A stretch of 64,000 bases of DNA from an uncultured Chloroflexia bacterium (lineage in GTDB: Bacteria; Chloroflexota; Dormibacteria; Aeolococcales; Aeolococcaceae), in NCBI GenBank assembly GCA_963697585.1, contig CAVOOO010000009.1:151295-215294 (forward strand), written 5' to 3'. Numbering within the stretch: the stretch's first letter is position 1; the number at the start of each line of letters is the position of its first letter. The position numbers were made by a program, and so were the translations under genes. This document shows, piece after piece, positions 3,254-36,767 of the stretch. The notes beneath the pieces are model-generated. The model worked only from the letters and a program-made list of their open reading frames with translations, was not told the DNA's origin and ran no database searches.

Positions 3254-5040
3254 TCGGCGAGCAGGAGCTGGAGATCGCGCCCGCGATCGCGGCGGAGATC
3301 GAGGAGTTCGAGCGGCGGGCGCGCGCCTTCGCCAACCTGGAGGAGGACGAGGAGAGCTTCAAGCCCTACCGCCTCTCCTACGGCATCTACGGGCAGCGCC
3401 AGCCCGGCTACCAGATGGTGCGCGTCAAGATCCCGCACGGCCGGCTGACCGCCGACCAGCTCGACGCGCTGGCCGACTTCAGCGAGCGCTTCTGCGACGA
3501 GGGCGAATACCCCGGCGGTGGCGGGCGTGGCATGGGTCACGTCACCACCCGGCAGGATATGCAGTTCCACTTCGTGCCGCTGCAGCGGGTGCCGGAGGCG
3601 ATGCGCCATCTCGCCCGCGCGGGGCTGACCACACGCGAGGCCTGCTTCAACACGGTGCGCAACATCACCGGCTGCCCGCTGGCCGGCGCCTGCGGCACCG
3701 AGGCGTTCGACATCACACCCTACGCGCAGGCGGCGACCGAGCTCTTCCTGCGCAACCCGATCTGCCAGAACCTGCCGCGCAAGTTCAAGATCGCGTTCTC
3801 CGGCTGCGAGTCCGACTGCGGTCTCGGCGCCATGCACGACATCGGCGCGGTGGCGCGGGTGCGCGACGGTGAGCGCGGCTTCAGGGTCTGGGTCGGTGGC
3901 GGACTCGGCAACTCGCCGCGTCCGGCGACCCTGCTCTACGACTTCCTGCCTGTGCGCCAATTCTTCCTCGTGATCGAGGCGGTCATCCGCGTCTTCGACG
4001 CCGAGGGCCCGCGCAAGAACCGCAACCGCGCGAGGATCAAGTTCCTGTTCGACAGGACGTACACCGCCGAGACGTTCCGCAGCCGGGTCGAGGAGGTGGT
4101 CGCCGAGCTGCCGCCCGACGCCTGGTCGCACCGGATCGTCGAGGGGCTGCCGGAGCGGGTGGAACGCGAGGCCGGACGGCGCGAGGCTCTCGTCCCGCTG
4201 CCCACCTTCAGCGTGAACGGGGTGGCGCGCGGAGTCCGTTACGCCCGCTGGCGGGCCACCAACGTGATGCCCCACCGGCTCGAGGGCTACGGCCTCGTCT
4301 CCCTGCGGCTCGCCCTCGGCGACATCACCGCCACCCAGCTCCGGGTCGCGGCCGAGGCGGCGCGGAGGTGGAGCGGGGGAGAGGCGCGCACCAGCGCGGG
4401 GCAGAACCTGGTGCTGCGCGACGTGCGCCTCGAGGACGTCGCCCCCCTCTACGACTTCCTGCTGCCGCACGGGCTTGCGGAGGCGGAGGCGCTCGGCATC
4501 CGCGACGTCGTCACCTGCCCGGGCGCGGACACCTGCAACCTTGGGATCACCTCGTCGCGCGGCCTGGGCCGGGCGGTGAGCCGCTGGCTCGACGACAGCC
4601 GGCTGCAGGACCTTCCCGAGTTCGCCGGCACCAGCATCAAGGCGAGCGGCTGCCCCAACTCGTGCAGCCAGCACCACATCGCCACCGTCGGCTTCTACGG
4701 CAACAGCAAGCACGTCGGCGACGACCCCGTGCCCCATTACATGCTGATGCTGGGCGGCGGGATCGACTCGCGCGGGGCCCGGATGGCCCAGCCGGTGATG
4801 AAGATCCCGGCGCGGCGGGTGCCGGCCGCGCTGGAGCGGCTGGTCGCTCAGTACCGCGAGGAGCGTGGCGGTGGCGAGCTGTTCGCGCAGTGGGTGGAGC
4901 GGGCCGACCGCGAGGCGGTCAGGGCGCGCCTCGCCGACCTCACCCTGAGCGATGCCCCCACCGCGGAGGAGGTCTTCGACTGGGATCAGGACGCCGCCTT
5001 CACCGGGAAGACCGGTGAGGGGGAGTGCGCCGCGGTCTGA
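3250..5040 (+). CDS. sir: ferredoxin-dependent sulfite reductase (NirA/SirA family)
   Basis: ATG at 3250 overlaps the cysG stop; 596 aa. Siroheme/4Fe-4S motif TCPGADTCNLG...ASGCPNSCSQHHIA. Sits with cysH and cysG. Confidence 0.9.
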   Translation: MIGEQELEIAPAIAAEIEEFERRARAFANLEEDEESFKPYRLSYGIYGQRQPGYQMVRVKIPHGRLTADQLDALADFSERFCDEGEYPGGGGRGMGHVTTRQDMQFHFVPLQRVPEAMRHLARAGLTTREACFNTVRNITGCPLAGACGTEAFDITPYAQAATELFLRNPICQNLPRKFKIAFSGCESDCGLGAMHDIGAVARVRDGERGFRVWVGGGLGNSPRPATLLYDFLPVRQFFLVIEAVIRVFDAEGPRKNRNRARIKFLFDRTYTAETFRSRVEEVVAELPPDAWSHRIVEGLPERVEREAGRREALVPLPTFSVNGVARGVRYARWRATNVMPHRLEGYGLVSLRLALGDITATQLRVAAEAARRWSGGEARTSAGQNLVLRDVRLEDVAPLYDFLLPHGLAEAEALGIRDVVTCPGADTCNLGITSSRGLGRAVSRWLDDSRLQDLPEFAGTSIKASGCPNSCSQHHIATVGFYGNSKHVGDDPVPHYMLMLGGGIDSRGARMAQPVMKIPARRVPAALERLVAQYREERGGGELFAQWVERADREAVRARLADLTLSDAPTAEEVFDWDQDAAFTGKTGEGECAAV

Positions 5041-22066: not shown

Positions 22067-22117
22067 ACCCCGGCGCCCGCTCGTCTCCGCCTGAGCGCCG
22101 CTGAGGCCGGTCAGAAA

Positions 22118-24799
22118 TCAGCGGCGCGACGCGGCGGTGTCGCAGGCGCGGGCCCTCATCGCCCTCTCGGTCCCGTCCCGTCCCTCGATGATCGGCCGGG
22201 ACGCCGCGCGCCGGGTCGACTCCGAGAGCTCGGTGGAATCCCGGATCGCCGCCAGCGCCCGGTCCGCGGCGTCGAGCGTCCCCGGCTCGACCAGCTCGCG
22301 GGGGTAGAGGAACTCGGTGAAGCTCTCCGCCTCCTCCGAGCTGCGCAGGGCCCAGAAGCGCGGCACCTCCTCGATCCACCGCTCCACATAGGGGCGGAGC
22401 AGCGCGATCTGGCGGTCGCCCCATTGGATCAATCCACCCACCGCGAAGGGCCCCACCCCGAACCCGCCCATCAGCGCGTGCTGCATCTGGAGCGGAAGCT
22501 CGGTCCCCCCGACCACCAGGTCGAAGGCGGTGCGCTTGGCCTCGGGGTTGGGCCGGGCGGCCCGGCACGCGGCCGCCCGCCGGCGGCCGAAGTCGGTGTC
22601 GTCGATGGAGAGCTGGGCCTGGATCGGGGACTCCGCGTCGCGGCCCGAGCCGGCCAGCCGGCCCACCATCATCCAGCGGAGGTCGTTGTCGATGGCCAGC
22701 CCGGGCACGCTCTCGCCACCGTCGAGGAGGTGCTCCAGCCGGTCGAGGTCGGCATCGGCATCGCCGGCCATGATGCGGGCCCGGGCCCAGGTGAGCTGGA
22801 CGTCACCGCCGGGCTCGGCGGCGGCCAGCTGCTCCCAGGCCGCCGCCGCCACCCGGGCGCGCGCCGCCGCGCGGTTGGCCGGGTCACCGAACTGCTCGAT
22901 GGCCGCCACCGCCTGGCTGAGCAGCCGCTCGAGCACGGTGACCTCGGTCTCGACTCTGGCGTGCCGGAGCACGGCGTCGACGAAGTCGCGGGTGGGCAGC
23001 TCGGCGTCGCGGGTCATGTCCCAGAGCGCGGCCCAGCAGAGCGAGCGCGCGAGCGGGTCCTCGAGGCCGCCGAGATCGTGCAGCAGGGTCCCGATCGAGG
23101 TGGGGTCGAAGCGCAGCTTGGCGAAGGTGAGGTCGTCGTCGTTGACCAGGGTGAGGTCGGCGAGCGCCTCCCCGCGCAGCACATCCACGGAGGTGCGCTC
23201 GCCGCAGACGTCGGTGTCGACCTGGCGGTAGCGGACCAGGCGGCCCTGCTCGAGGCGGTAGAGGCCGACCCTCACGTGATGGGAGCGCAGGGTGGGGTGG
23301 GCCGGGGCCGCCCTCTGCACGATGGTCAGGCTCTCGATGCGGCCGTCCTTGGCCTCGATCTCGGGGATCAGCGTGTTCATGCCGGCGGTGCGCAGCCACT
23401 CCGCCGCCCAGGCGCCGAGGTCGCGCCCCGAGGCGGTCTCGATGCAGGCCAGGAACTCCCGCAGGCTGGCGTTGCCCCAGCGGTAGCGGCGGAAGTACTC
23501 GCGCACCCCGGTGGTGAAGGCGGCGTCGCCGACCCAGGCGACCAGCTGCTTGAGCACCGCGGCGCCCTTCTGGTAGGTGATGCCGTCGAAGTTCTGGCGG
23601 ACCTCGTTGGTGTCGGCGCAGGGGGTGGAGACGGGGTGGGTCGAGGGGAGCTGGTCCTGGCGGGCGGCCGCCGACTTCATGGTGTTGGCGAAGTCCACCC
23701 AGGCGTTGGTGTAGGCGGTGGCGGTCACCATCGCCTTGTTGGCCATGTAGGTGGCGAAGGTCTCGTTGAGCCAGAGGTCGCCCCACCAGCGCATGGTGGC
23801 GACATCCCCGAAGCCGCAGACGTGGGCCATCTCGTGAGTGATCACCTCGGCCCGCCGCGCCCGCTGCAGCTCGGTCGCCCGGCTCCGGAAGATGTACATC
23901 TCGTTGAAGGTGACGCAGCCGGGATTCTCCATCGCCCCCATGTTGAATTCGGGCACGAAGAGCTGGTTGTACTCGTCGAACTGGTGCTCGAGACCGAACT
24001 CCTCGGCGAAGAAGTCGAGGCCCTGCCGGGTGATCTCGAAGAGCTCGCCGGCCTGCTCCTCGAGCTGGGGGGCGAGCGAGCGGCGCGCGTAGAGGCCGAG
24101 CCGGACCCCCTTGTGCTCGCTCTCCACGACCCGGTAGTCGCCGGCGGCGACCGCCATCAGGTAGGTGGGGAGGGGAGGGGTGGCATTGAACCGCCAGGTG
24201 CGGCTGCCGTCGCCGTGCTCGTCCCGGCCCAGCACCCGGCCGTTGCCGCAGACCTCCCAGGCGACCGGCGCGCGCACCGCCACCGTGAAGGTGCCCTTGA
24301 GGTCCGGCTGGTCGAAGCAGGCGATCACCTTGTGGGCGTCGAAGGGCTCGAAGTGGGTGTAGAGGTAGACCTGCTGGTCGACGGGATCGACCACCCGGTG
24401 GAGCCCGACCCCCACCCGCTCGTAGGCGCAGTCGGCGACCACGTCGACCCTGACCGGCCCCTCGGGGAGGCCCGCCAGCGGGATCCTGGCCCCGTCGTAC
24501 CCCTCCACGGCGGCGGCCGACGGCCGCCCGTCCACCACGACCTCGCGGAGCCGCCCCGGCTCCCCGACGGTGAGGTTGAGGAAGGTCTCGGCTCCGGGCC
24601 GCCGGCACGAGAAGCCCAGGTGGGTCGTGCTGCGGAAGGTTGGGGCGGTGGGGTCGTCGCTCACCTCGAGCTCGACCCGGTAGCTGAGCTCACCGATGAG
24701 GGCGGCGCGCTCCGCCGCCTCGGTTTCGGTGAGGTTGTCACTCGTGATGCGTCCGGCCACGGGTGGCCATTGTGGGCGTCTCGTCCCCTCCGGCGCCAA
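22118..24799 (-). CDS. pepN: aminopeptidase N (M1 family)
   Basis: GAMEN motif (FNMGAMENPG) and zinc site HEMAHVCGFG...WLNETFATY. About 890 aa. Confidence 0.9.
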   Translation of the reverse strand: MAPEGTRRPQWPPVAGRITSDNLTETEAAERAALIGELSYRVELEVSDDPTAPTFRSTTHLGFSCRRPGAETFLNLTVGEPGRLREVVVDGRPSAAAVEGYDGARIPLAGLPEGPVRVDVVADCAYERVGVGLHRVVDPVDQQVYLYTHFEPFDAHKVIACFDQPDLKGTFTVAVRAPVAWEVCGNGRVLGRDEHGDGSRTWRFNATPPLPTYLMAVAAGDYRVVESEHKGVRLGLYARRSLAPQLEEQAGELFEITRQGLDFFAEEFGLEHQFDEYNQLFVPEFNMGAMENPGCVTFNEMYIFRSRATELQRARRAEVITHEMAHVCGFGDVATMRWWGDLWLNETFATYMANKAMVTATAYTNAWVDFANTMKSAAARQDQLPSTHPVSTPCADTNEVRQNFDGITYQKGAAVLKQLVAWVGDAAFTTGVREYFRRYRWGNASLREFLACIETASGRDLGAWAAEWLRTAGMNTLIPEIEAKDGRIESLTIVQRAAPAHPTLRSHHVRVGLYRLEQGRLVRYRQVDTDVCGERTSVDVLRGEALADLTLVNDDDLTFAKLRFDPTSIGTLLHDLGGLEDPLARSLCWAALWDMTRDAELPTRDFVDAVLRHARVETEVTVLERLLSQAVAAIEQFGDPANRAAARARVAAAAWEQLAAAEPGGDVQLTWARARIMAGDADADLDRLEHLLDGGESVPGLAIDNDLRWMMVGRLAGSGRDAESPIQAQLSIDDTDFGRRRAAACRAARPNPEAKRTAFDLVVGGTELPLQMQHALMGGFGVGPFAVGGLIQWGDRQIALLRPYVERWIEEVPRFWALRSSEEAESFTEFLYPRELVEPGTLDAADRALAAIRDSTELSESTRRAASRPIIEGRDGTERAMRARACDTAASRR

Positions 24800-26979: not shown

Positions 26980-27221
26980 GGCCGCCGGGGAGGGACCCCG
27001 CCCGCCGTCACCGTCGTGGGGGCGGATGGCCGGCGGAGACGCGGTGGCCGCTGGTGATTCGATAGACGCTTCCAGTCCGTGAGACGCGAATCGCGGTCTC
27101 GGGCTGCGCGCGGGAGACGGCTCGAAATGCACCTCGAATCGCGCATCGTGCGTGATGCACGAGGGTGGACCGCGCGCGGCGCGGCACCACGCCCAAAGCC
27201 CCCGCGAGCCCGCGGTGGGGC

Positions 27222-27598
27222 ATGACCGGCTTGGTAGCATTTGCCACCGAGATGCTCTCGGACTACGCGCCGATCCTCGTCTTCCTGGGTATCTGCATCC
27301 TCTTCGGCGCGGGAGTGCCGCTGCTGAGCAGCGCCCTGGGGCCTCGCCGGCCCAGCCCGGAGAAGGAGCTCCCCTACGAGTTCGGCATCGTTCCCGTGAT
27401 CTCGGCCCGGCGCCGGTTCTCGGTGGCCTTCTACGTCACCGCGATGCTGTTCATCGTCTTCGACGTCGAGTCGATCTTCCTCTTCCCCTGGGCGACGATC
27501 GTCCGCCAGCTCAGGGTCTTCGGGATCATCGAGATGGGGATCTTCATCCTGGTGCTGCTGATCGGGCTGGTCTACATCTGGGCCAAGGGGGCGCTCCG

Positions 27599-27608
<10 letters not shown>
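27222..27608 (+). CDS. nuoA: NADH-quinone oxidoreductase subunit A
   Basis: Internal ATG of ORF 27165..27608. [26 protein letters not shown]. About 128 aa. Confidence 0.85.
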
Positions 27609-28171
<563 letters not shown>

Positions 28172-28178
28172 GCGGGCG

Positions 28179-28760
28179 ATGACCAGCGTGGAGGACACCG
28201 CCGGTTCTCACCCTGTGGCCGGAGCGAGGGCACTGGACCTCCTCCGGCGGGAGCTTCCCGAGGTCGTGGTGATGAGCGAGGAGGGCTTCGGCGAGGTGAC
28301 CATCCGGGTTCCCCGGGAGCGGATCGTCGAGGTGGCGCGGCTGCTCCGCGACCACCCGGAGGCGCGTTACGACCTCCCCCTCTGCGTGACCGCGGTCGAC
28401 TGGCCCGATCGCGAACCCGAGGTGCCGCGCTTCGACGTCGTCTACCAGCTCCGCTCCATGCAGCACAACGACGTGGTCCGGCTGGCCGTCCAGGTGCCCG
28501 GTGACGACCCCCGCGTCCCCACCCTGGAGGGGGTCTTCGCGGGGATGGACTGGCACGAGCGGGAGGCATTCGACCTGCTGGGCATCGAGTTCGAGGGTCA
28601 CCACGACCTCCGCCGCATCCTCCTCCCCGACGACTGGGAGGGGCACCCGCTGCGCAAGGACTACGTCTCCTTCGGCGAGCCGATCGCCTTCACCCACAAC
28701 CTGGAGTGGGCGATGCCCGCGCAGGAGAGGCCGCCCGACATGCCCGGCGAGTTGCGATGA
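28179..28760 (+). CDS. nuoC: NADH-quinone oxidoreductase subunit C
   Basis: FDVVYQLRS...GMDWHEREAFDLLGIEFEGHHDLRRILLPDDWEGHPLRKDY. Confidence 0.9.
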   Translation: MTSVEDTAGSHPVAGARALDLLRRELPEVVVMSEEGFGEVTIRVPRERIVEVARLLRDHPEARYDLPLCVTAVDWPDREPEVPRFDVVYQLRSMQHNDVVRLAVQVPGDDPRVPTLEGVFAGMDWHEREAFDLLGIEFEGHHDLRRILLPDDWEGHPLRKDYVSFGEPIAFTHNLEWAMPAQERPPDMPGELR

Positions 28761-28945
28761 CGCTCATCTCCGCCCATCTCGGCGTCAGCTTCAGGGGGGC
28801 GTCCGCCCCCCTTCGGCGCGCGAGATTGCGCGCCTACCCCCAAGGAAAGCATGCACACCCACACGCTGCGCTCCCTCGCTGCGCGGCTCGCTTCCTGGAT
28901 CTGGACGGCCTGAGCGTCATCGGGGTGGGTCGGCGATGACGCTCA
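28754..28945. repeat. structured ~179-bp insertion at the nuoC/nuoD junction, bounded by direct repeats GCGATGACGCTCA with an internal inverted copy
   Basis: GCGATGACGCTCA at 28754-28766 and 28933-28945, with the reverse complement TGAGCGTCATCG at 28911-28922. Internal perfect hairpins AGGGGGGCG-tc-CGCCCCCCT (28793-28812) and GGCGCGC-gagatt-GCGCGCC (28815-28834). Confidence 0.7.
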
Positions 28946-28973
28946 CCGACGCCCAGCTCGGTGTGATCCGGCG

Positions 28974-30261
28974 ATGAGCGTGCTGCCGCCGCTCGGCCCC
29001 CCCGGCCACGACCCCGTCTCCGAGCAGTACGAGCACGGCCGGGAGCTGCTCGGGGTGGCCCCCGAGCTCGACGCCATCGACCTGGTCCAGCTCGACGACC
29101 AGACCATGGAGCTGAACATGGGGCCCCAGCACCCCTCCACCCACGGCGTGCTCCGCCTGGTGCTGGACCTGGACGGCGAGATCGTGCGCGGCTGCCGGCC
29201 GGACATCGGCTTCCTGCACACCGGCTTCGAGAAGGACTTCGAGCGGCACAACTACCAGCAGTGCATCCCCTACACGGACCGGATGGACTACCTCTCGCCG
29301 CTCAGCAACAACCTCGGCTTCTCCCTGGCGGCGGAGCGGCTGCTGGGCATCGAGGTCCCGCCTCGGGCGCAGTACCTGCGGGTGATCATGTGCGAGCTGG
29401 CCCGGATCGCCAGCCACCTGATCTGGTACGGGACCAGCGCCCTCGACCTCGGCGCCACCACCCCCTTCGTCTACGCCTGGCGGGAGCGGGAGAAGATCCT
29501 GGACATCAACGAGCTGGTGAGCGGGGTGCGGATGCACACCTCGTTCATCCGGGTGGGGGGGCTGCTCGCCGACGTGCCCGACGAGTTCTACGCCCTGGTC
29601 GCCGAGGTGGCCAAGACCTTCCCCCACCACATCGACGAGTACGAGACCCTGATCACCGGCAACCCCATCTTCCGGGAGCGGACCCGAGGGCTGGGGGTGA
29701 TCAGCCCCGAGGACGCCATCAACTACGGGGTCACCGGGCCGTCGCTGCGGGGCAGCGGGGTCGCCTACGACCTGCGCAAGGCGGTTCCCTACAGCTCCTA
29801 CGACCACTTCGACTTCGACGTGCCGATCGGCGAGCGGGGCGACATCTACGACCGCTACCTGGTGCGGATGGCGGAGATGCGCCAGTCGCTCCGGATCATC
29901 GACCAGGCGCTGGAGGGCCTGCCCGGTGGCCCGGTCAACACCAGCGACCGCCAGGTCGCGCTGCCGCCGCGCAACGAGATCAACACCAGCATGGAGTCGC
30001 TGATCCGCCACTTCAAGCTGGTGACCGAGGGATTCCGGGTGCCCCGCGGCACCGTCTACCAGGCGGTCGAGTTCCCCACGGGGAGAGCTGGGCTTCCTGC
30101 TGGTGAGCGACGGGACCAACCGGCCCTACCGCTGCAAGGTGCGGGCCCCCTCCTTCAGCAACCTCAGCGCCCTGCCCCACATGGCGGTGGGCGAGATGCT
30201 CCCCGACCTGGTGGCGGTCATCGGCTCCATCGACATCGTCCTCGGGGACGTCGACCGATGA
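28974..30261 (+). pseudogene. nuoD: NADH-quinone oxidoreductase subunit D, single-base frameshift as assembled (possible assembly artefact)
   Basis: NMGPQHPSTHGVLRL and the rest of NuoD are in frame up to AVE (30069-30071). Removing one T at 30072/30073 gives [29 protein letters not shown]...[11 protein letters not shown] ending at 30261. The uncorrected ORF runs to 30302 with a nonsense tail. Confidence 0.85.
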
Positions 30262-30301
30262 ACGGCCTGCGCAGCGCCGGCCGCCTCCGGGGGAGCCTCT
30301 G

Positions 30302-30853
30302 ATGCCCGTGCTCACCTCCGAGACCCGCGCCGAGATCGAGAGGCAGCGCGACCGCTATCCGCAGCCGCGCAGCGCGGTGCTGCCCTCGCTCTGGGCGGTG
30401 CAGCACCAGCTCGGCTACCTGAGCCCGGAGGGGATGGCCGAGGTGGCCGAGCTGCTCCGGATCACCCCCAGCGAGGTCGAGGCGGTGGCCAGCTTCTACT
30501 CCATGTACTTCGACCACCCGGGCGGGCGCCACCACGTGCTGGTCTGCATCAACGTCTCCTGCGCCCTGCGCGGCTCCGACGAGATCGTCTCCCACCTGGA
30601 GGGACGGCTCGGCTGCCCCTCGGGCGGGACCACGGCCGATGGGGAGTTCACCTGGGAGCAGACGGTCGAATGCCTGGGCGCCTGCGGCGGCGCGCCCGCC
30701 ATGCAGGTGGACCACCACTTCCAGGAGAACCTCACCCCGGAGCGGGTCGACGCCATCCTCGACGAGGTGCGCGCCGCGCCGGCATCCGAACCGGATGGCG
30801 CTTCCGCGGGCCACGCCCCCGCCGCCGCCCGGGCCCGCAGGGCGGGTCGCTGA
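30302..30853 (+). CDS. nuoE: NADH-quinone oxidoreductase subunit E
   Basis: VLPSLWAVQHQLGYLS, ASFYSMY, VCINVSCALRG...CLGACGGAPAMQV (2Fe-2S cysteines). Confidence 0.9.
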   Translation: MPVLTSETRAEIERQRDRYPQPRSAVLPSLWAVQHQLGYLSPEGMAEVAELLRITPSEVEAVASFYSMYFDHPGGRHHVLVCINVSCALRGSDEIVSHLEGRLGCPSGGTTADGEFTWEQTVECLGACGGAPAMQVDHHFQENLTPERVDAILDEVRAAPASEPDGASAGHAPAAARARRAGR

Positions 30854-32156
30854 TGGCCGAGCACCGCCTCCTCACCAAGGACTTCGGGACCGACGGCCTC
30901 CAGACCCTCGACGTCTACGAGCGCTGCGGCGGCTACGAGGGACTGCGCAAGGCGCTGCGCAGCCTCACCCCCGACGAGCTGGTGGCCGAGGTCAAGACCA
31001 GTGGCATCCGGGGCCGCGGCGGCGCCGGCTTCCCCACCGGGATGAAGTGGTCCTTCCTCCCCAAGGACATCCACCCCCGCTACCTCTGCGTCAATGCCGA
31101 CGAGTTGGAGCCCGGCTGCTTCAAGGACCGGGCCCTGATCGACGAGAACCCGCACCAGCTCATCGAGGGGACCCTGATCGCCGCCTACGCGATCCAGGCG
31201 CCGATCGCCTTCATCTACATCCGCGGCGAGTACCACGACCAGCGGCTGCTGCTGGAGCGCTGCGTCGAGGAGGCGCGGGCCGCCGGCTACATCGGCCGGG
31301 GGATCCTGGGCTCCGACTTCAGCTGCGACGTCATCGTCCACGGCGGCGCCGGCGCCTACATCTGCGGCGAGGAGACGGCGCTCATCGACTCCCTGGAGGG
31401 GCTGCGCGGGCAGCCCCGGCTCAAGCCACCCTTCCCGGCGGTCAAGGGCCTGTACGGCAAGCCGACCGTCGTCAACAACGTGGAGACGCTCTCCAACCTC
31501 CCTCACATCGTGCTCCGCGGCGGCGCCTGGTTCGCCTCGGTGGGCACCGAGAAGAGCACCGGGACCCGGCTCTTCTGCTGCAGCGGGCACATCAACCGCC
31601 CCGGCACCTACGAGATGGCCCTGGGCACCCCGATCCGCGAGCTGCTCGAGGAGGAGTGCCGCGGGGTCTGGAGGGGCCGCTCCCTCAAGGCCTTCCAGCC
31701 CGGCGGCGGCTCGATGCAGGTGCTCCTCCCCGAGCATCTCGACCTTCCGCTGGACATGGACGCGGTCTCCAAAGCCGGATCCGCGCTCGGCGCCGGCGCC
31801 ATGGTCTTCATGGACGAGACCACCTGCATGGTGGACGTCTCCATGCGCCTGGTCGACTTCTACCAGCACGAGTTCGTGCGGCAAGTGCGCCCCCTGCCGC
31901 GAGGGCACCTACTTCGAGGCCGACCTGATGCACCGGCTGGAGCGCGGTGAGCTGAGCAGCGCCGAGCTGACCACCCTCAGCGACATCTGCGACAACATGA
32001 ACGGCAAGTGCTTCTGCCCGCTGGGCGACACCGCCACCTGGTTCGTGATGTCGGCGTATCAGGCGTTCCGCGACGAGTTCGAGGAGCACTGCGGGGCGGG
32101 CGGCTGCCCGGTCAAGCGGCGCAACCAGCAGCCCGTGCCCGCTGGCGAGAGCGCCG

Positions 32157-35194: not shown

Positions 35195-36054
35195 TGTTCC
35201 GCGAGATCGCCCAGGGGCTGAGCCTGACGCTCCGCAGCATGTTCAAGAAGCCGATCACGGTGCAGTGGCCGGAGGAGCAGAGGCTGGTGCCGCCGCGCCA
35301 CCGCGGCCGCCACATCCTCCACCGCTACGACAACGGCCTGGAGAAGTGCATCGGCTGCGAGCTCTGCGCCGCCGCCTGCCCGGTCGGCTGCATCTACGTG
35401 GGGCCCGCCGAGAACCCGAAGGACCACCCGATCAGCCCCGGCGAGCGGTATGCCGAGCGCTACGAGATCAACCTGATGCGCTGCATCTACTGCGGCTACT
35501 GCGCGGAGGCCTGCCCCACCGAGGCGATCACCCTCGGGCCCCGCTACGACCTGGCCGACTACCGGCGCGAGCACACCGTGGTCACCAAGGCGGAGCTGCT
35601 CGAGGCCTGGCCGAACTTCGAGCAGGGGCGCGGACCGATCGCGCCGCGCGGCGCCGGCTCGGACCAGCGCGGTCGCGAGCTCCCGGAGATGGGGGTCGAC
35701 CCGCGGGTGGCCTGGGGGGTGGCCCAGGCGGCGCGGGGCGACACCACCACGCTGCCCGGCGGTCACGGCATCGCCAGCCGGCCGCCCACCATCGCGGCGC
35801 CGGCGCCGAGGGGCGAGAGCGAAGCGGTCGAGGTTGCCACGCGGGCCGCCGGGCTGGAGGTCGCCGCTGCCAACCCGGTCGCCGGTGACGATCCAGCCGC
35901 CGGTGACGACCCAGCCGCCGCTGCCAACCCAGCGGCCGGTGGCCTCCCGCCGGTCACCGGCGAGGGCGATGCGGTGACGGCGAGCCCTGACGCCGCACCG
36001 CCCGAGGGCCCGGAGCCCGGCACCCCGGCCAGGCCGCGGAGGCGCCGGTCGTGA
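35194..36054 (+). CDS. nuoI: NADH-quinone oxidoreductase subunit I with ~130-aa Ala/Pro/Gly-rich C-terminal extension
   Basis: TGATG overlap with nuoH. Two 4Fe-4S motifs, CIGCELCAAACP and CIYCGYCAEACP. 286 aa in total. Confidence 0.85.
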   Translation: MFREIAQGLSLTLRSMFKKPITVQWPEEQRLVPPRHRGRHILHRYDNGLEKCIGCELCAAACPVGCIYVGPAENPKDHPISPGERYAERYEINLMRCIYCGYCAEACPTEAITLGPRYDLADYRREHTVVTKAELLEAWPNFEQGRGPIAPRGAGSDQRGRELPEMGVDPRVAWGVAQAARGDTTTLPGGHGIASRPPTIAAPAPRGESEAVEVATRAAGLEVAAANPVAGDDPAAGDDPAAAANPAAGGLPPVTGEGDAVTASPDAAPPEGPEPGTPARPRRRRS

Positions 36055-36767
36055 ACGCGCTGATGGCGGCGCTGCTGATCCTGATCGCGATCTCGGCCCT
36101 CGGGGTGGTGTTCTCGCCCCAGACCATCTACTCGGCGCTCTCCCTGGTGCTGACCGTCGGGCTGCTGGCGGCGATCTTCCTGGTGCTCAACGCCCAGTTC
36201 CTCTTCGCGGTGCAGCTGATCGTCTACGCCGGGGCGGTGATGGTGCTCTTCGTCTTCATCATCGCCCTGCTCGACCCGGCCTCCGAGGAGCGCCCCCGGC
36301 TCGCCGACCCCCGGCTGATCCTCGGGGTGCTGGCCATCGCCGGGATCTGCACCGCGGTCTTCATCGCGGCCCGCAACGGGATCACCTACGCCACCTCCTG
36401 CACCACCCAGGCTGCCTCCTGCATGCACGGCTACACGGTGGGCAGCCTGGCGGCGAGCGGCGCCGCCGGCGCCGACCCCTACAACACCTTCGGCTTTCCC
36501 CAGAACGGGGTGGACCAGGCGGGCAACGTCCAGGTGCTCGCCAACCAGCTGTTCCACACCTACGTGCTTCCCTTCGAGATCACCTCGCTGCTGCTGCTGG
36601 TGGCCGCGATCGGCGCCGTCTACCTCACCCGCCGCACCCGGACCGGGATCCGTCGCGACCCGCGGATCCCGGAGAGCTGGAGCGACGACCTGATGGAGCG
36701 CGCCGAGCCCCCCGTCCCGACCGTCCCCGCGGCCGCCGGGGCACCGGTGGCCGAGGCGCGATCCTGA
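36051..36767 (+). CDS. nuoJ: NADH-quinone oxidoreductase subunit J
   Basis: GTGA overlap with nuoI. LFAVQLIVYAGAVMVLFVFIIALL. Confidence 0.85.
   Translation: MNALMAALLILIAISALGVVFSPQTIYSALSLVLTVGLLAAIFLVLNAQFLFAVQLIVYAGAVMVLFVFIIALLDPASEERPRLADPRLILGVLAIAGICTAVFIAARNGITYATSCTTQAASCMHGYTVGSLAASGAAGADPYNTFGFPQNGVDQAGNVQVLANQLFHTYVLPFEITSLLLLVAAIGAVYLTRRTRTGIRRDPRIPESWSDDLMERAEPPVPTVPAAAGAPVAEARS

What the first reader, a model, noticed from the sequence alone, without database searches (positions are those of the whole stretch)
28754..28977. Structured 179-bp insertion between nuoC and nuoD that preserves a relay of ATGA stop/start overlaps
nuoC and nuoD are normally adjacent, overlapping or fused; here 213 bp separate them. 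The segment is bounded by 13-bp direct repeats GCGATGACGCTCA (28754, 28933). The following ~22 bp are also similar, encoding MTLISAHLGV versus MTLTDAQLGV. The segment contains the inverted copy TGAGCGTCATCG (28911) and two perfect GC hairpins (28793-28812, 28815-28834). This looks like a duplication or MITE-like insertion at the original junction. Every junction keeps GCGATGA: the nuoC stop overlaps the ATG of a 60-codon ORF (28757-28939). That ORF's stop overlaps the ATG of a 13-codon ORF (28936-28977). The 13-codon ORF's stop in turn overlaps the nuoD ATG (28974). Termination-reinitiation could therefore still carry ribosomes from nuoC to nuoD.
Basis: seen in the sequence. Interest (0 to 1): 0.65.

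Follow-up and report, generated by a model that had tools for sequence, protein, structure and literature searches.

The report
Palindromic repeat with relay mini-ORF
The 213-base gap between two respiratory-complex genes holds one and a half copies of a small palindromic repeat found at a few operon junctions in Dormibacterota. Each copy carries a short reading frame whose start and stop overlap the neighbouring genes, apparently so that ribosomes are handed across the insertion.

Summary
The organism is a Candidatus Dormibacterota bacterium. In 54 of 77 related genomes, nuoC and nuoD overlap (ATGA) or abut.

The insert is not a private duplication. It belongs to a low-copy, dispersed, imperfect-palindrome (MITE-like) family. 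Other copies sit between nuoD/nuoE, rpsD/rpoA and xseB/tlyA, after a peptidase M1 gene, and in a tandem array.

The window holds four pieces:
- a long variant (28757-28939), which has an expanded centre with the two GC hairpins;
- an internally deleted remnant (28936-28977). The "13-bp direct repeats" are the 5' ends of these two copies, not a target duplication;
- a remnant at nuoD/nuoE (30258-30302);
- an arms-only footprint at 22088-22130.

All 20 junction alleles examined keep an unbroken chain of ORFs that overlap or abut both neighbours. All length changes are frame-compatible, including a 105-nt deletion between 99.3%-identical strains. Substitutions show no codon periodicity, so the frame is conserved but the peptide is not. 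The palindrome shows compensatory changes.

Best reading: a selfish palindromic repeat tolerated inside essential operons because a relay mini-ORF preserves translational coupling. This is functionally like mycobacterial MIRUs. Translation itself is inferred, not shown.

The parts
28179..28760 (+). nuoC (193 aa). Its stop TGA at 28758-28760 overlaps the relay ATG at 28757.
   Evidence: ORF list. NuoC homologues carry PF00329 and are named Dormibacteria.
28757..28939 (+). Relay ORF 1: 60 codons running through the long-variant element. Its start overlaps the nuoC stop (ATGA) and its stop overlaps the next ATG (ATGA).
   Evidence: Homologous ORFs of 43-60 codons occur in L018, L023, L097 and L105. 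GC3 is 0.77 against 0.93-0.99 in flanking genes. There is no codon periodicity in substitutions.
28754..28927 (+). Palindromic repeat element, long variant, as matched by the covariance model.
   Evidence: cmsearch with R1 gives 63.7 bits, E = 2e-14. nhmmer hits cover both arms. The fold gives z = -3.1.
28755..28766 (+). Left terminal inverted repeat CGATGACGCTCA. It contains the relay ATG and the nuoC stop.
   Evidence: Inverted repeat I1, 12/12 complementary. It covaries with the right arm in L105, L018, L023, L091 and L103.
28793..28834 (+). Two GC hairpins (28793-28812 and 28815-28834) in the expanded apical region of the long variant.
   Evidence: Fold. They are conserved in L105 with changes only in the loops. 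They are absent from standard copies.
28851..28913 (+). Internal 20-codon ORF preceded by SD-like AAGGAAAG, in the nuoC/nuoD frame. Probably incidental.
   Evidence: The SD+ATG is conserved in L105, L001 and L089, but the ORF end differs.
28911..28922 (+). Right terminal inverted repeat TGAGCGTCATCG.
28923..28935 (+). Junction-specific tail (GGGGTGGGTCGGC) between the palindrome and the next ATGA. It has a G-rich, SD-like stretch.
   Evidence: Comparison of copies. Tails differ by junction and often contain GGAG or GGGGAG.
28936..28977 (+). Relay ORF 2: a 13-codon remnant copy of the element (5' arm plus tail, interior deleted). Its stop overlaps the nuoD ATG.
   Evidence: It is 27/32 identical to the 5' arm of the long copy. 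It is orthologous to the 34-nt or 31-nt spacers of L002, L003, L009, L010 and L016. There is a weak nhmmer hit in L001.
28974..30261 (+). nuoD. The window copy has a 1-nt insertion at 30072 that shifts the frame.
30258..30302 (+). Second remnant: a 14-codon relay ORF ([14 protein letters not shown]) between nuoD (ATGA) and nuoE (TGATG).
   Evidence: It equals the 3' end of the full 145-nt copy in L090, which is 99.3% identical to the window in nuoE-nuoF. The relay chain was checked.
22088..22130 (-). Arms-only footprint of the same element at the stop codon of the peptidase M1 gene (22118-24799, minus strand).
   Evidence: cmsearch gives E = 0.002. It is orthologous to the full copy at L097 4226-4375 (minus strand).

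Best explanation
The nuoC-nuoD spacer consists of two tandem copies of a small, non-coding, imperfect-palindromic repeat element. It is MITE-like, and the standard form is about 125 nt plus a 10-25-nt tail. The element occurs at low copy number in one clade of Candidatus Dormibacterota.

**Where and how it sits**
- It lies in the sense orientation exactly at overlapping or abutting stop/start junctions inside operons.
- Its left tip supplies an ATG next to the upstream stop.
- One frame through the palindrome is open.
- The insert ends in a stop that overlaps the downstream start.

**Proposed mechanism (inferred)**
1. A ribosome terminating on nuoC melts the closing stem, which contains the relay ATG.
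2. It re-initiates and translates through the hairpin, unfolding it as it goes.
3. It terminates at the next ATGA. In the window it then repeats this on the 13-codon remnant.
4. It re-initiates on nuoD.

The insertion would therefore be translationally almost transparent and tolerated in an essential operon. The peptide itself has no function.

**What is shown and what is inferred**
- Shown: family membership, palindrome, relay architecture and frame conservation. The copies also change quickly: internal deletions leave arm remnants, the apical region expands, copies occur in tandem, and presence or absence is patchy among close relatives.
- Inferred: actual translation and re-initiation, and the mobility mechanism.
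For: **Ancestral state**
- ATGA or -1 junctions occur in 54 of 77 genomes. L007, with 90% NuoC identity, has a direct ATGA overlap.

**Homologous copies elsewhere**
- At the same junction: L018/L095, L023, L097-99 and L105.
- At other junctions: nuoD/nuoE (L090, L087), xseB/tlyA (L091, L093, L103, L108, L109), rpsD/rpoA (L100, L106) and the 3' end of peptidase M1 (L097). A 71-nt-period tandem array occurs in L092/L096.
- nhmmer E-values range from 1e-25 to 1e-45, and cmsearch scores from 120 to 146 bits.

**Palindrome**
- RNAalifold predicts a single long hairpin.
- 97.5% of cells are paired. The covariation score is 0.102 against 0.029 in shuffles (0/500). Four pairs show double changes (2/500).
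- The outer stem differs between copies but stays complementary:
  - CGATGACGCTCA / TGAGCGTCATCG
  - GACGCGCA / TGCGCGTC
  - GCCGGCGCTCA / TGAGCGCCGGC

**Relay**
- 19 of 19 junction alleles tested form a complete chain. In L106 the relay start lies 2 nt after the stop.
- L058 and L082 carry unrelated inserts with 27- and 53-codon relay ORFs.
- All DNA-ascertained length changes are frame-compatible: +6, +51, -141, -3 and -105 nt, plus five independent insertions. If each had a 1/3 chance, the joint probability is about 2e-5 (my calculation).
- The 105-nt deletion separates strains that are 99.3% identical.

**The peptide is not under selection**
- Differences by codon position are 86:77:85. 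Nonsynonymous to synonymous codon changes are 141:37.
- GC3 is 0.77 against 0.93-0.99 in the flanking genes.
- There is no Pfam hit.

**Precedent**
- MIRUs are described as inserting at start codons, so that an internal ORF is coupled at -4 nt (PMC12548453).
Against: - There are no transcript or ribosome data, so re-initiation is inferred from architecture and conservation only.
- Absence of stops in the relay frame is not itself evidence of selection. Only 0.40 new stops are expected from the observed substitutions. The argument rests on indel phase. Some alleles (rpsD/rpoA, part of xseB/tlyA) were found through called ORFs, which biases towards open frames.
- Copy number is low for a MITE: 16 clusters in 5.8e9 proteins, 19 real representatives in 1.84e9, and 8 loci in the metagenome scan.
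- No transposase partner is known. The flanking CGATGA/ATGA repeats cannot be distinguished from native junction sequence or from part of the terminal inverted repeat.
- Covariation is modest. G-U pairs and C-A mismatches are similarly frequent, so selection on RNA cannot be separated from selection on a DNA hairpin.
- A single standard copy does not fold significantly better than shuffles (z = -1.46).
Confidence: 0.72

Rival explanations
1. The conserved feature is a cis-acting structured RNA, for example an RNase processing or stabiliser hairpin, or a device that lowers or tunes NuoD translation relative to NuoC. On this view the open frame is a by-product of GC-rich sequence.
For: The long palindrome shows compensatory changes. 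The long variant folds strongly (z = -3.1 and -5.7). The start codon and upstream stop are sequestered in the closing stem. Open frames are cheap at 72% GC.
Against: The same element sits in four functionally unrelated operon junctions, in 3' untranslated positions and in tandem arrays. Close relatives lack it. Remnants that have lost the palindrome (z about 0) still keep the relay frame and length phase. There is no Rfam family match.
Confidence: 0.15
2. The 60-codon ORF encodes a functional small protein, for example an accessory subunit of complex I.
For: The ORF is conserved as open in several lineages, and gene callers annotate it as a hypothetical protein. It is translationally coupled to nuoC and nuoD.
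Against: Substitutions are spread evenly over codon positions, and nonsynonymous changes dominate (141:37). GC3 is 0.77 against 0.93-0.99. The same 'protein' sits between rpsD/rpoA and xseB/tlyA. It is freely truncated to 12-14 codons or absent in close relatives. There is no Pfam match.
Confidence: 0.04
3. A purely local event explains the segment: tandem duplication or template switching at the nuoC/nuoD junction with captured filler DNA. No repeat family or mobility is involved.
For: The segment has 32-nt direct repeats and an inverted copy of junction sequence. No second copy of the 28767-28932 interior exists in the window.
Against: Homologous elements sit at non-orthologous loci, with nhmmer E-values of 1e-25 to 1e-45 and cmsearch scores of 120-146 bits. 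The repeats are explained as the 5' arms of two element copies. A local tandem duplication or unequal exchange may still explain why two units sit side by side in this lineage: L105 has the long copy alone, and L002 has the mini copy alone.
Confidence: 0.05
4. The spacer is an assembly or sequencing artefact of the window.
For: The window carries three single-base insertions relative to a 99%-identical assembly. Two of them shift the frame of nuoD and nuoF.
Against: L001 and L089 are independent assemblies and have the identical spacer architecture without indels.
Confidence: 0.01

Closest known systems
MIRU (mycobacterial interspersed repetitive units; Supply et al. 1997, as summarised in PMC12548453)
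   Same: Both are short repeats located between genes of operons in the sense orientation. Both contain an ORF coupled to the adjacent gene with a -4-nt (ATGA) overlap, which is thought to let the element insert with minimal effect on expression. Both vary in tandem copy number and length between close strains. Here that includes long+mini tandem copies, a 2.7-copy array, and a full versus deleted allele at 99.3% identity.
   Different: The host phylum is unrelated, and sequence homology was not tested. This element is a long imperfect palindrome with terminal inverted repeats that include the relay ATG. From memory, MIRUs are direct-repeat minisatellite units without such a palindrome. This family has very low copy number, and it often decays by internal deletion to 12-14-codon relay remnants.
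Prokaryotic MITEs with palindromic transcripts (ERIC, Correia/NEMIS, QMITE; review PMC10969869)
   Same: The element is small and has no transposase. It has terminal inverted repeats, predicted stable stem-loop transcripts, dispersed copies, and flanking short direct repeats in some copies.
   Different: The review describes MITEs as typically AT-rich and sitting in AT-rich intergenic DNA. This family is about 65-70% GC and sits precisely on stop/start overlaps. The relay ORF architecture is not a described MITE feature. The target-site duplication and the autonomous partner are unresolved.
RPE (Rickettsia palindromic elements)
   Same: Both are palindromic elements of about 100-150 bp whose insertion is compatible with translation, because one frame is open.
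   Different: RPEs insert inside genes and are translated as in-frame fusions. Here the element forms a separate mini-cistron, delimited by its own start and stop, that overlaps the neighbours. No fusion with NuoC or NuoD occurs.
Coupled leader or uORF 'ribosome delivery' mini-cistrons and synthetic bicistronic designs
   Same: In both, a short ORF has the sole role of delivering a ribosome to an overlapping downstream start and unfolding local structure (PMC12548453).
   Different: Those are fixed, locus-specific features. Here the mini-cistron is carried by a repeat element, and in the window it is chained as two relays in series.

Membership tests
Prokaryotic MITE | Small, non-autonomous element with no transposase gene | tested here: met
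   The element is 125-180 nt. Its only ORF is the 43-60-codon relay frame, which has no Pfam match and shows neutral substitution patterns.
Prokaryotic MITE | Terminal inverted repeats | tested here: met
   The window has a 12/12 inverted repeat. Arms are 11-13 nt in the other copies, and the whole element is an imperfect palindrome.
Prokaryotic MITE | Target-site duplication (flanking direct repeats) | tested here: inconclusive
   CGATGA or ATGA flanks both sides in the nuoC/D, nuoD/E (L087) and rpsD/rpoA (L106) copies. However, the same hexamer is native junction sequence and also forms part of the left inverted repeat. Other copies have TGATG on one side. The 13-32-nt repeat in the window is not a target-site duplication.
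Prokaryotic MITE | Multiple dispersed copies in a genome | tested here: met
   At least six distinct locus types were found across the clade. There are two copies within 20 kb of L097 and four copies or remnants within the window. Copy number is low, and no complete genome could be scanned.
Prokaryotic MITE | Related autonomous IS or transposase able to mobilise it | not testable with these tools
MIRU-like intercistronic relay repeats | Located between co-oriented genes of an operon, in the same orientation | tested here: met
   This holds for the nuoC/D, nuoD/E, rpsD/rpoA and xseB/tlyA copies, all in sense orientation. The reverse-strand covariance-model scores are about 27 bits against 145 bits. 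Two locus types, the M1 3' end and the L092 array, are not intercistronic.
MIRU-like intercistronic relay repeats | Internal ORF whose start and stop overlap those of the flanking genes | tested here: met
   19 of 19 alleles form a complete chain, and in L106 the start lies 2 nt after the stop.
MIRU-like intercistronic relay repeats | Variable tandem copy number between strains | tested here: met
   The window has long+mini copies, L105 has the long copy only, L002 has the mini copy only and L007 has none. L092 has a 2.7-copy array.
MIRU-like intercistronic relay repeats | Sequence homology to mycobacterial MIRU units | not tested
The phyla are unrelated, so the claim is 'works like', not 'is a member'.
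RPE-type in-frame genic palindromes | Translated as an in-frame fusion within a host protein | tested here: not met
   Stops at 28758 and 28937 delimit separate cistrons. NuoC and NuoD keep their native ends.
Any curated RNA family (Rfam 15) | A covariance-model match | tested here: not met
   No relevant match was found at E <= 10 in window 27000-31000 or around the standard copy in L097.

The most novel reading that the evidence does not exclude
The family is a mobile palindrome specialised for one niche: the overlapping stop/start tetranucleotide (ATGA/TGATG) of translationally coupled genes. It brings its own start codon in the left inverted repeat, an open frame, and a terminal ATGA. Insertion, tandem duplication and internal deletion therefore all regenerate a working ribosome relay. 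That would be an adaptation of selfish DNA to life inside essential operons such as complex I and rpsD-rpoA. The patchy presence next to exactly restored ATGA junctions in sister genomes would then reflect site-specific insertion and precise excision. One candidate mechanism is single-strand 'peel-and-paste' of the IS200/IS605 type, with ATGA as both target and cleavage site. The hairpin-plus-relay could also tune subunit stoichiometry.
Probability: 0.3. Interest if true: 0.75.

Novelty: new variant of a known kind. Interest (0 to 1): 0.6.

Why it matters
- It would be a second, independently evolved example, after mycobacterial MIRUs, of repeat DNA that survives inside operons by carrying a ribosome-relay mini-cistron. 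This one is in an uncultured phylum and has a different, palindromic architecture.
- It offers a natural experiment on termination-reinitiation. The alleles include one or two relays in series, 12 to 60 codons, and strong hairpins or none, and some sit in nearly identical strains.
- It has a practical consequence for annotation. The 43-60-aa "hypothetical proteins" between nuoC and nuoD, and between rpsD and rpoA, in Dormibacterota MAGs are element relay frames, not genes.
- The length polymorphism could serve as a strain marker in the way MIRU-VNTR does.

Tried and rejected
- **Other copies inside the window:** BLAST of the 224-nt segment against the window found none. Copies were found only with profiles built from relatives.
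- **Known RNA or protein families:** Rfam and Pfam gave no matches. There are no tRNA or tmRNA genes, and no promoter- or terminator-like sites in 28400-29300.
- **Other collections:** there were no plasmid or viral-contig matches.
- **Exact look-up of the window's NuoC:** it is not on record.
- **Stop-avoidance test for selection on the relay frame:** this was uninformative. Only 0.40 new stops are expected and none were observed, so I do not use 'no stops' as evidence.
- **G-U versus C-A mismatch asymmetry, to separate RNA-level from DNA-level selection:** there were too few cases.
- **GGCGCGC...GCGCGCC hairpin as a separate dispersed REP-like family:** only 11 unique occurrences were found in 770 kb, so this is not supported.
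- **L094 from the metagenome scan:** this is a chance match inside a coding region.
- **P0144 from the exhaustive protein search:** this is a false positive, a repeat protein with an LDLNGDG motif.
- **Literature search:** no description of Dormibacterota repeats was found.
Full report
**1. The observation**

The window is 72.6% GC.
- nuoC runs 28179-28760 and nuoD starts at 28974.
- The nuoC TGA (28758-60) overlaps an ATG at 28757, which opens a 60-codon ORF.
- That ORF's TGA (28937-39) overlaps an ATG at 28936, which opens a 13-codon ORF.
- The 13-codon ORF's TGA (28975-77) overlaps the nuoD ATG.
- The direct repeat at 28754/28933 extends to 32 nt at 84% identity. The inverted copy at 28911-28922 is a perfect complement of 28755-28766.
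- The two GC hairpins fold as described.
- Two independent metagenome assemblies have the same spacer without indels: L001 (97.5% identity to the window) and L089 (99.06% over 14.3 kb).

**2. Organism and ancestral state**

NuoC homologues and the genome records that carry them are named Candidatus Dormibacteria/Dormibacterota. They are mostly peat and soil MAGs. Among 77 scorable species-representative genomes:
- 41 have nuoC/nuoD overlapping by 4 nt;
- 13 overlap by 1 nt;
- 16 have small spacings;
- 7 have spacers of 31 nt or more.

L007 (NuoC 90% identical) reads CGATGAGCGTGCTGCC, a direct ATGA overlap. The spacer is therefore derived.

**3. The insert belongs to a dispersed family**

Two more distant genomes, L018 (NuoC 79%) and L023 (84%), carry a 124-130-nt insert at the same junction. 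This insert is homologous to both ends of the window's insert. It lacks the two GC hairpins and the second repeat.

A metagenome scan with a pattern from the conserved right arm found the element elsewhere:
- between nuoD and nuoE (L090);
- between another gene and a tlyA-like gene (L091, L093);
- as a 2.7-copy, 71-nt-period tandem array (L092, L096).

A profile of the relay-frame peptides found 16 clusters among 5.8e9 proteins. An exhaustive search found 19 real representatives among 1.84e9. Their contexts were:
- nuoC/nuoD (L097-99, L105);
- rpsD/rpoA (L100-102, L106-107);
- xseB/tlyA (L103-104, L108-109).

nhmmer and a covariance model (R1) added three more:
- a nuoD/nuoE copy in L087;
- a copy at the 3' end of a peptidase M1 gene in L097;
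- an arms-only footprint at the orthologous place in the window (22088-22130, minus strand).

Nothing matches in Rfam, Pfam, plasmids or viral contigs.

**4. Anatomy**
- The standard unit is an imperfect palindrome of about 125 nt. Its core is CGCTCATTTCCGNCCAGCTC...GATCTGAACGGCCTGAGCG.
- The arms extend outward to ATG-N4-CGCTCA / TGAGCG-N4-CAT, so the relay start codon lies inside the closing stem.
- A junction-specific tail of 10-25 nt follows. It often contains GGAG or GGGGAG a few bases before the downstream start.
- RNAalifold predicts one long hairpin.
- On 12 distinct copies, 97.5% of cells pair. The covariation score is 0.102 against 0.029 in shuffles (0/500). Four pairs show double changes (2/500).
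- The outer stem is the clearest case. It reads CGATGACGCTCA/TGAGCGTCATCG in the window, L097 and L100, GACGCGCA/TGCGCGTC in L105, GCCGGCGCTCA/TGAGCGCCGGC in L018, and GACGCCCA/TGGGCGTC in L023.
- The apical region is variable. The window lineage (window, L001, L089, L105) has a net 51-nt expansion that contains the two GC hairpins and an SD-like AAGGAAAG plus ATG. Other copies carry a different expansion of about 24 nt.
- The long variant folds well below shuffled controls: z = -3.1 in the window and -5.7 in L105.

**5. What the window's spacer is**
- Positions 28757-28939 are a long-variant copy.
- Positions 28936-28977 are a copy whose interior (141 nt, 47 codons) has been deleted, leaving the 5' arm and the tail.
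- The '13-bp direct repeats' are the 5' arms of these two copies.
- The mini copy is orthologous to the 34-nt or 31-nt spacers of L002, L003-6, L009, L010 and L016.
- L105 (NuoC 92%) has the long copy alone, coupled directly to nuoD through ATGA.
- On a rough NJ tree, the window's subclade shows the states long+mini, long, mini and none. The standard copy appears in three other subclades whose nearest relatives have empty ATGA junctions.
- This pattern needs either repeated insertion at the same site, or repeated exact loss between the flanking CGATGA repeats.
- The window's nuoD/nuoE spacer (30262-30301) is a third remnant. L090 is 99.3% identical to the window across nuoE-nuoF and has the full 145-nt copy. 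The window, L001, L089 and L105 have a 14-codon remainder after a 105-nt deletion.

**6. The relay is the conserved property**
- 19 of 19 junction alleles tested form a complete chain from the upstream stop to the downstream start, through ORFs that overlap by 4 or 1 nt. In L106 the relay start lies 2 nt after the stop.
- L058 and L082 carry unrelated inserts at nuoC/nuoD. L058's insert folds as a palindrome (z = -2.6). Their relay ORFs are 27 and 53 codons.
- I counted only alleles found by DNA or by flanking-gene homology. Ten length-changing events keep the phase: five insertions, and changes of +6, +51, -141, -3 and -105 nt. At 1/3 each, the joint probability is about 2e-5. This is my arithmetic, and the independence of the events is approximate.
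- The peptide is not conserved. Differences between orthologous copies fall 86:77:85 on codon positions 1, 2 and 3, and 141 of 178 changed codons are nonsynonymous.
- ORF60 has GC3 of 0.77 against 0.93-0.99 in nuoB/C/D.
- Absence of stops is not evidence on its own, because only 0.40 new stops are expected.
- Remnants that no longer fold (z about 0) still keep the relay.

**7. Mechanism**

Shown:
- a dispersed palindromic repeat;
- its position on stop/start overlaps;
- a phase-conserved mini-cistron that overlaps both neighbours;
- rapid structural turnover.

Inferred:
- Ribosomes terminating on the upstream gene re-initiate on the relay ATG, which their own footprint frees from the closing stem.
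- They translate through the palindrome, unfolding it, and re-initiate on the downstream gene.
- The insertion therefore causes little polarity.

The inference draws on established knowledge of translational coupling at -4/-1 overlaps. The same logic has been proposed for MIRUs (PMC12548453). How the element spreads is unknown. The recurrent CGATGA/ATGA on both sides fits a short target duplication. It also fits insertion next to a tetranucleotide that the element itself ends with. The data cannot decide between these.

**8. Comparison with known systems**
- **MIRUs** are the closest in function. They are intercistronic, sense-oriented and ORF-coupled at -4, and they vary in tandem copy number.
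- **Palindromic MITEs** (ERIC, Correia, QMITE) and **RPEs** are the closest in structure (PMC10969869).
- The element differs from MIRUs in being a palindrome whose inverted repeat contains the start codon.
- It differs from RPEs in forming a separate cistron rather than a fusion.
- It differs from typical MITEs in GC content, in its precise niche and in its very low copy number.
- I file it as a new variant of a known kind.

**9. Caveats**
- There are no expression data.
- Part of the allele set was ascertained through called ORFs.
- Selection on the RNA hairpin and selection on a DNA hairpin cannot be told apart.
- The window carries probable single-base assembly errors elsewhere, though not in the spacer.

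Noticed in passing
window 30072 and 31873 (also 22105): The window has single-base insertions relative to the 99.06%-identical assembly L089. The first two shift the frame of nuoD (GAG[T]TCCCC) and nuoF (GAG[T]TCGTG), both in the context GAGT-T-C. These are probably assembly or base-calling errors rather than pseudogenes, because L001, L089 and L105 have intact genes.
   Followed up: partly
window 30258-30302: A 14-codon relay ORF ([14 protein letters not shown]) lies between nuoD (ATGA) and nuoE (TGATG). It is what remains of a full element copy, which is still present in L090 (99.3% identical flanks), after an in-frame 105-nt deletion.
   Followed up: yes
window 22088-22130 (minus strand): A 43-nt arms-only footprint of the same element lies at the stop codon of the peptidase M1 gene. 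The full copy, with an expanded centre, sits at the orthologous site in L097 at 4226-4375 (minus strand).
   Followed up: yes
L058 1347-1430; L082 3063-3224: Two more distant Dormibacterota genomes carry different inserts at the same nuoC/nuoD junction. L058's insert folds as a palindrome (z = -2.6); L082's was not folded. Each has a relay ORF (27 and 53 codons) that overlaps both genes. The two share a CCTCGGCGCGCTG.AG..GCGCGCCG hairpin module and may be a second relay-element family.
   Followed up: partly
L092 7044-7234 (same sequence in L096): A tandem array (71-nt period, 2.7 copies, 78% matches) built from right-arm halves of the element lies downstream of a gene. This is minisatellite-like behaviour.
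   Followed up: partly
window 28841-28913: An A-rich, SD-like AAGGAAAG plus ATG opens a 20-codon ORF inside the long variant, in the same frame as nuoC and nuoD. The motif is conserved in L105, L001 and L089, but the ORF's end differs. Its significance is unknown.
   Followed up: partly
window 35880-36053 and 36708-36767: NuoI has a long Pro/Ala/Gly-rich low-complexity C-terminal tail that ends in a GTGA overlap with nuoJ. NuoJ is about 19 aa longer at its C-terminus than in L097. Neither matches the repeat element.
   Followed up: no
L087 2990-3060: In this genome the nuoC 3' end is rewritten (…DMTWRNTEW…) and has no stop before nuoD. nuoD appears to start at a GTG preceded by GGAG. This is a different solution at the same junction.
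   Followed up: no
L004 (ENA ERZ25039509 contig_45006): nuoB and nuoD are each split into two called genes in this assembly, but are intact in the otherwise identical L003 and L005. This is consistent with long-read indel errors in some of these MAG assemblies.
   Followed up: no
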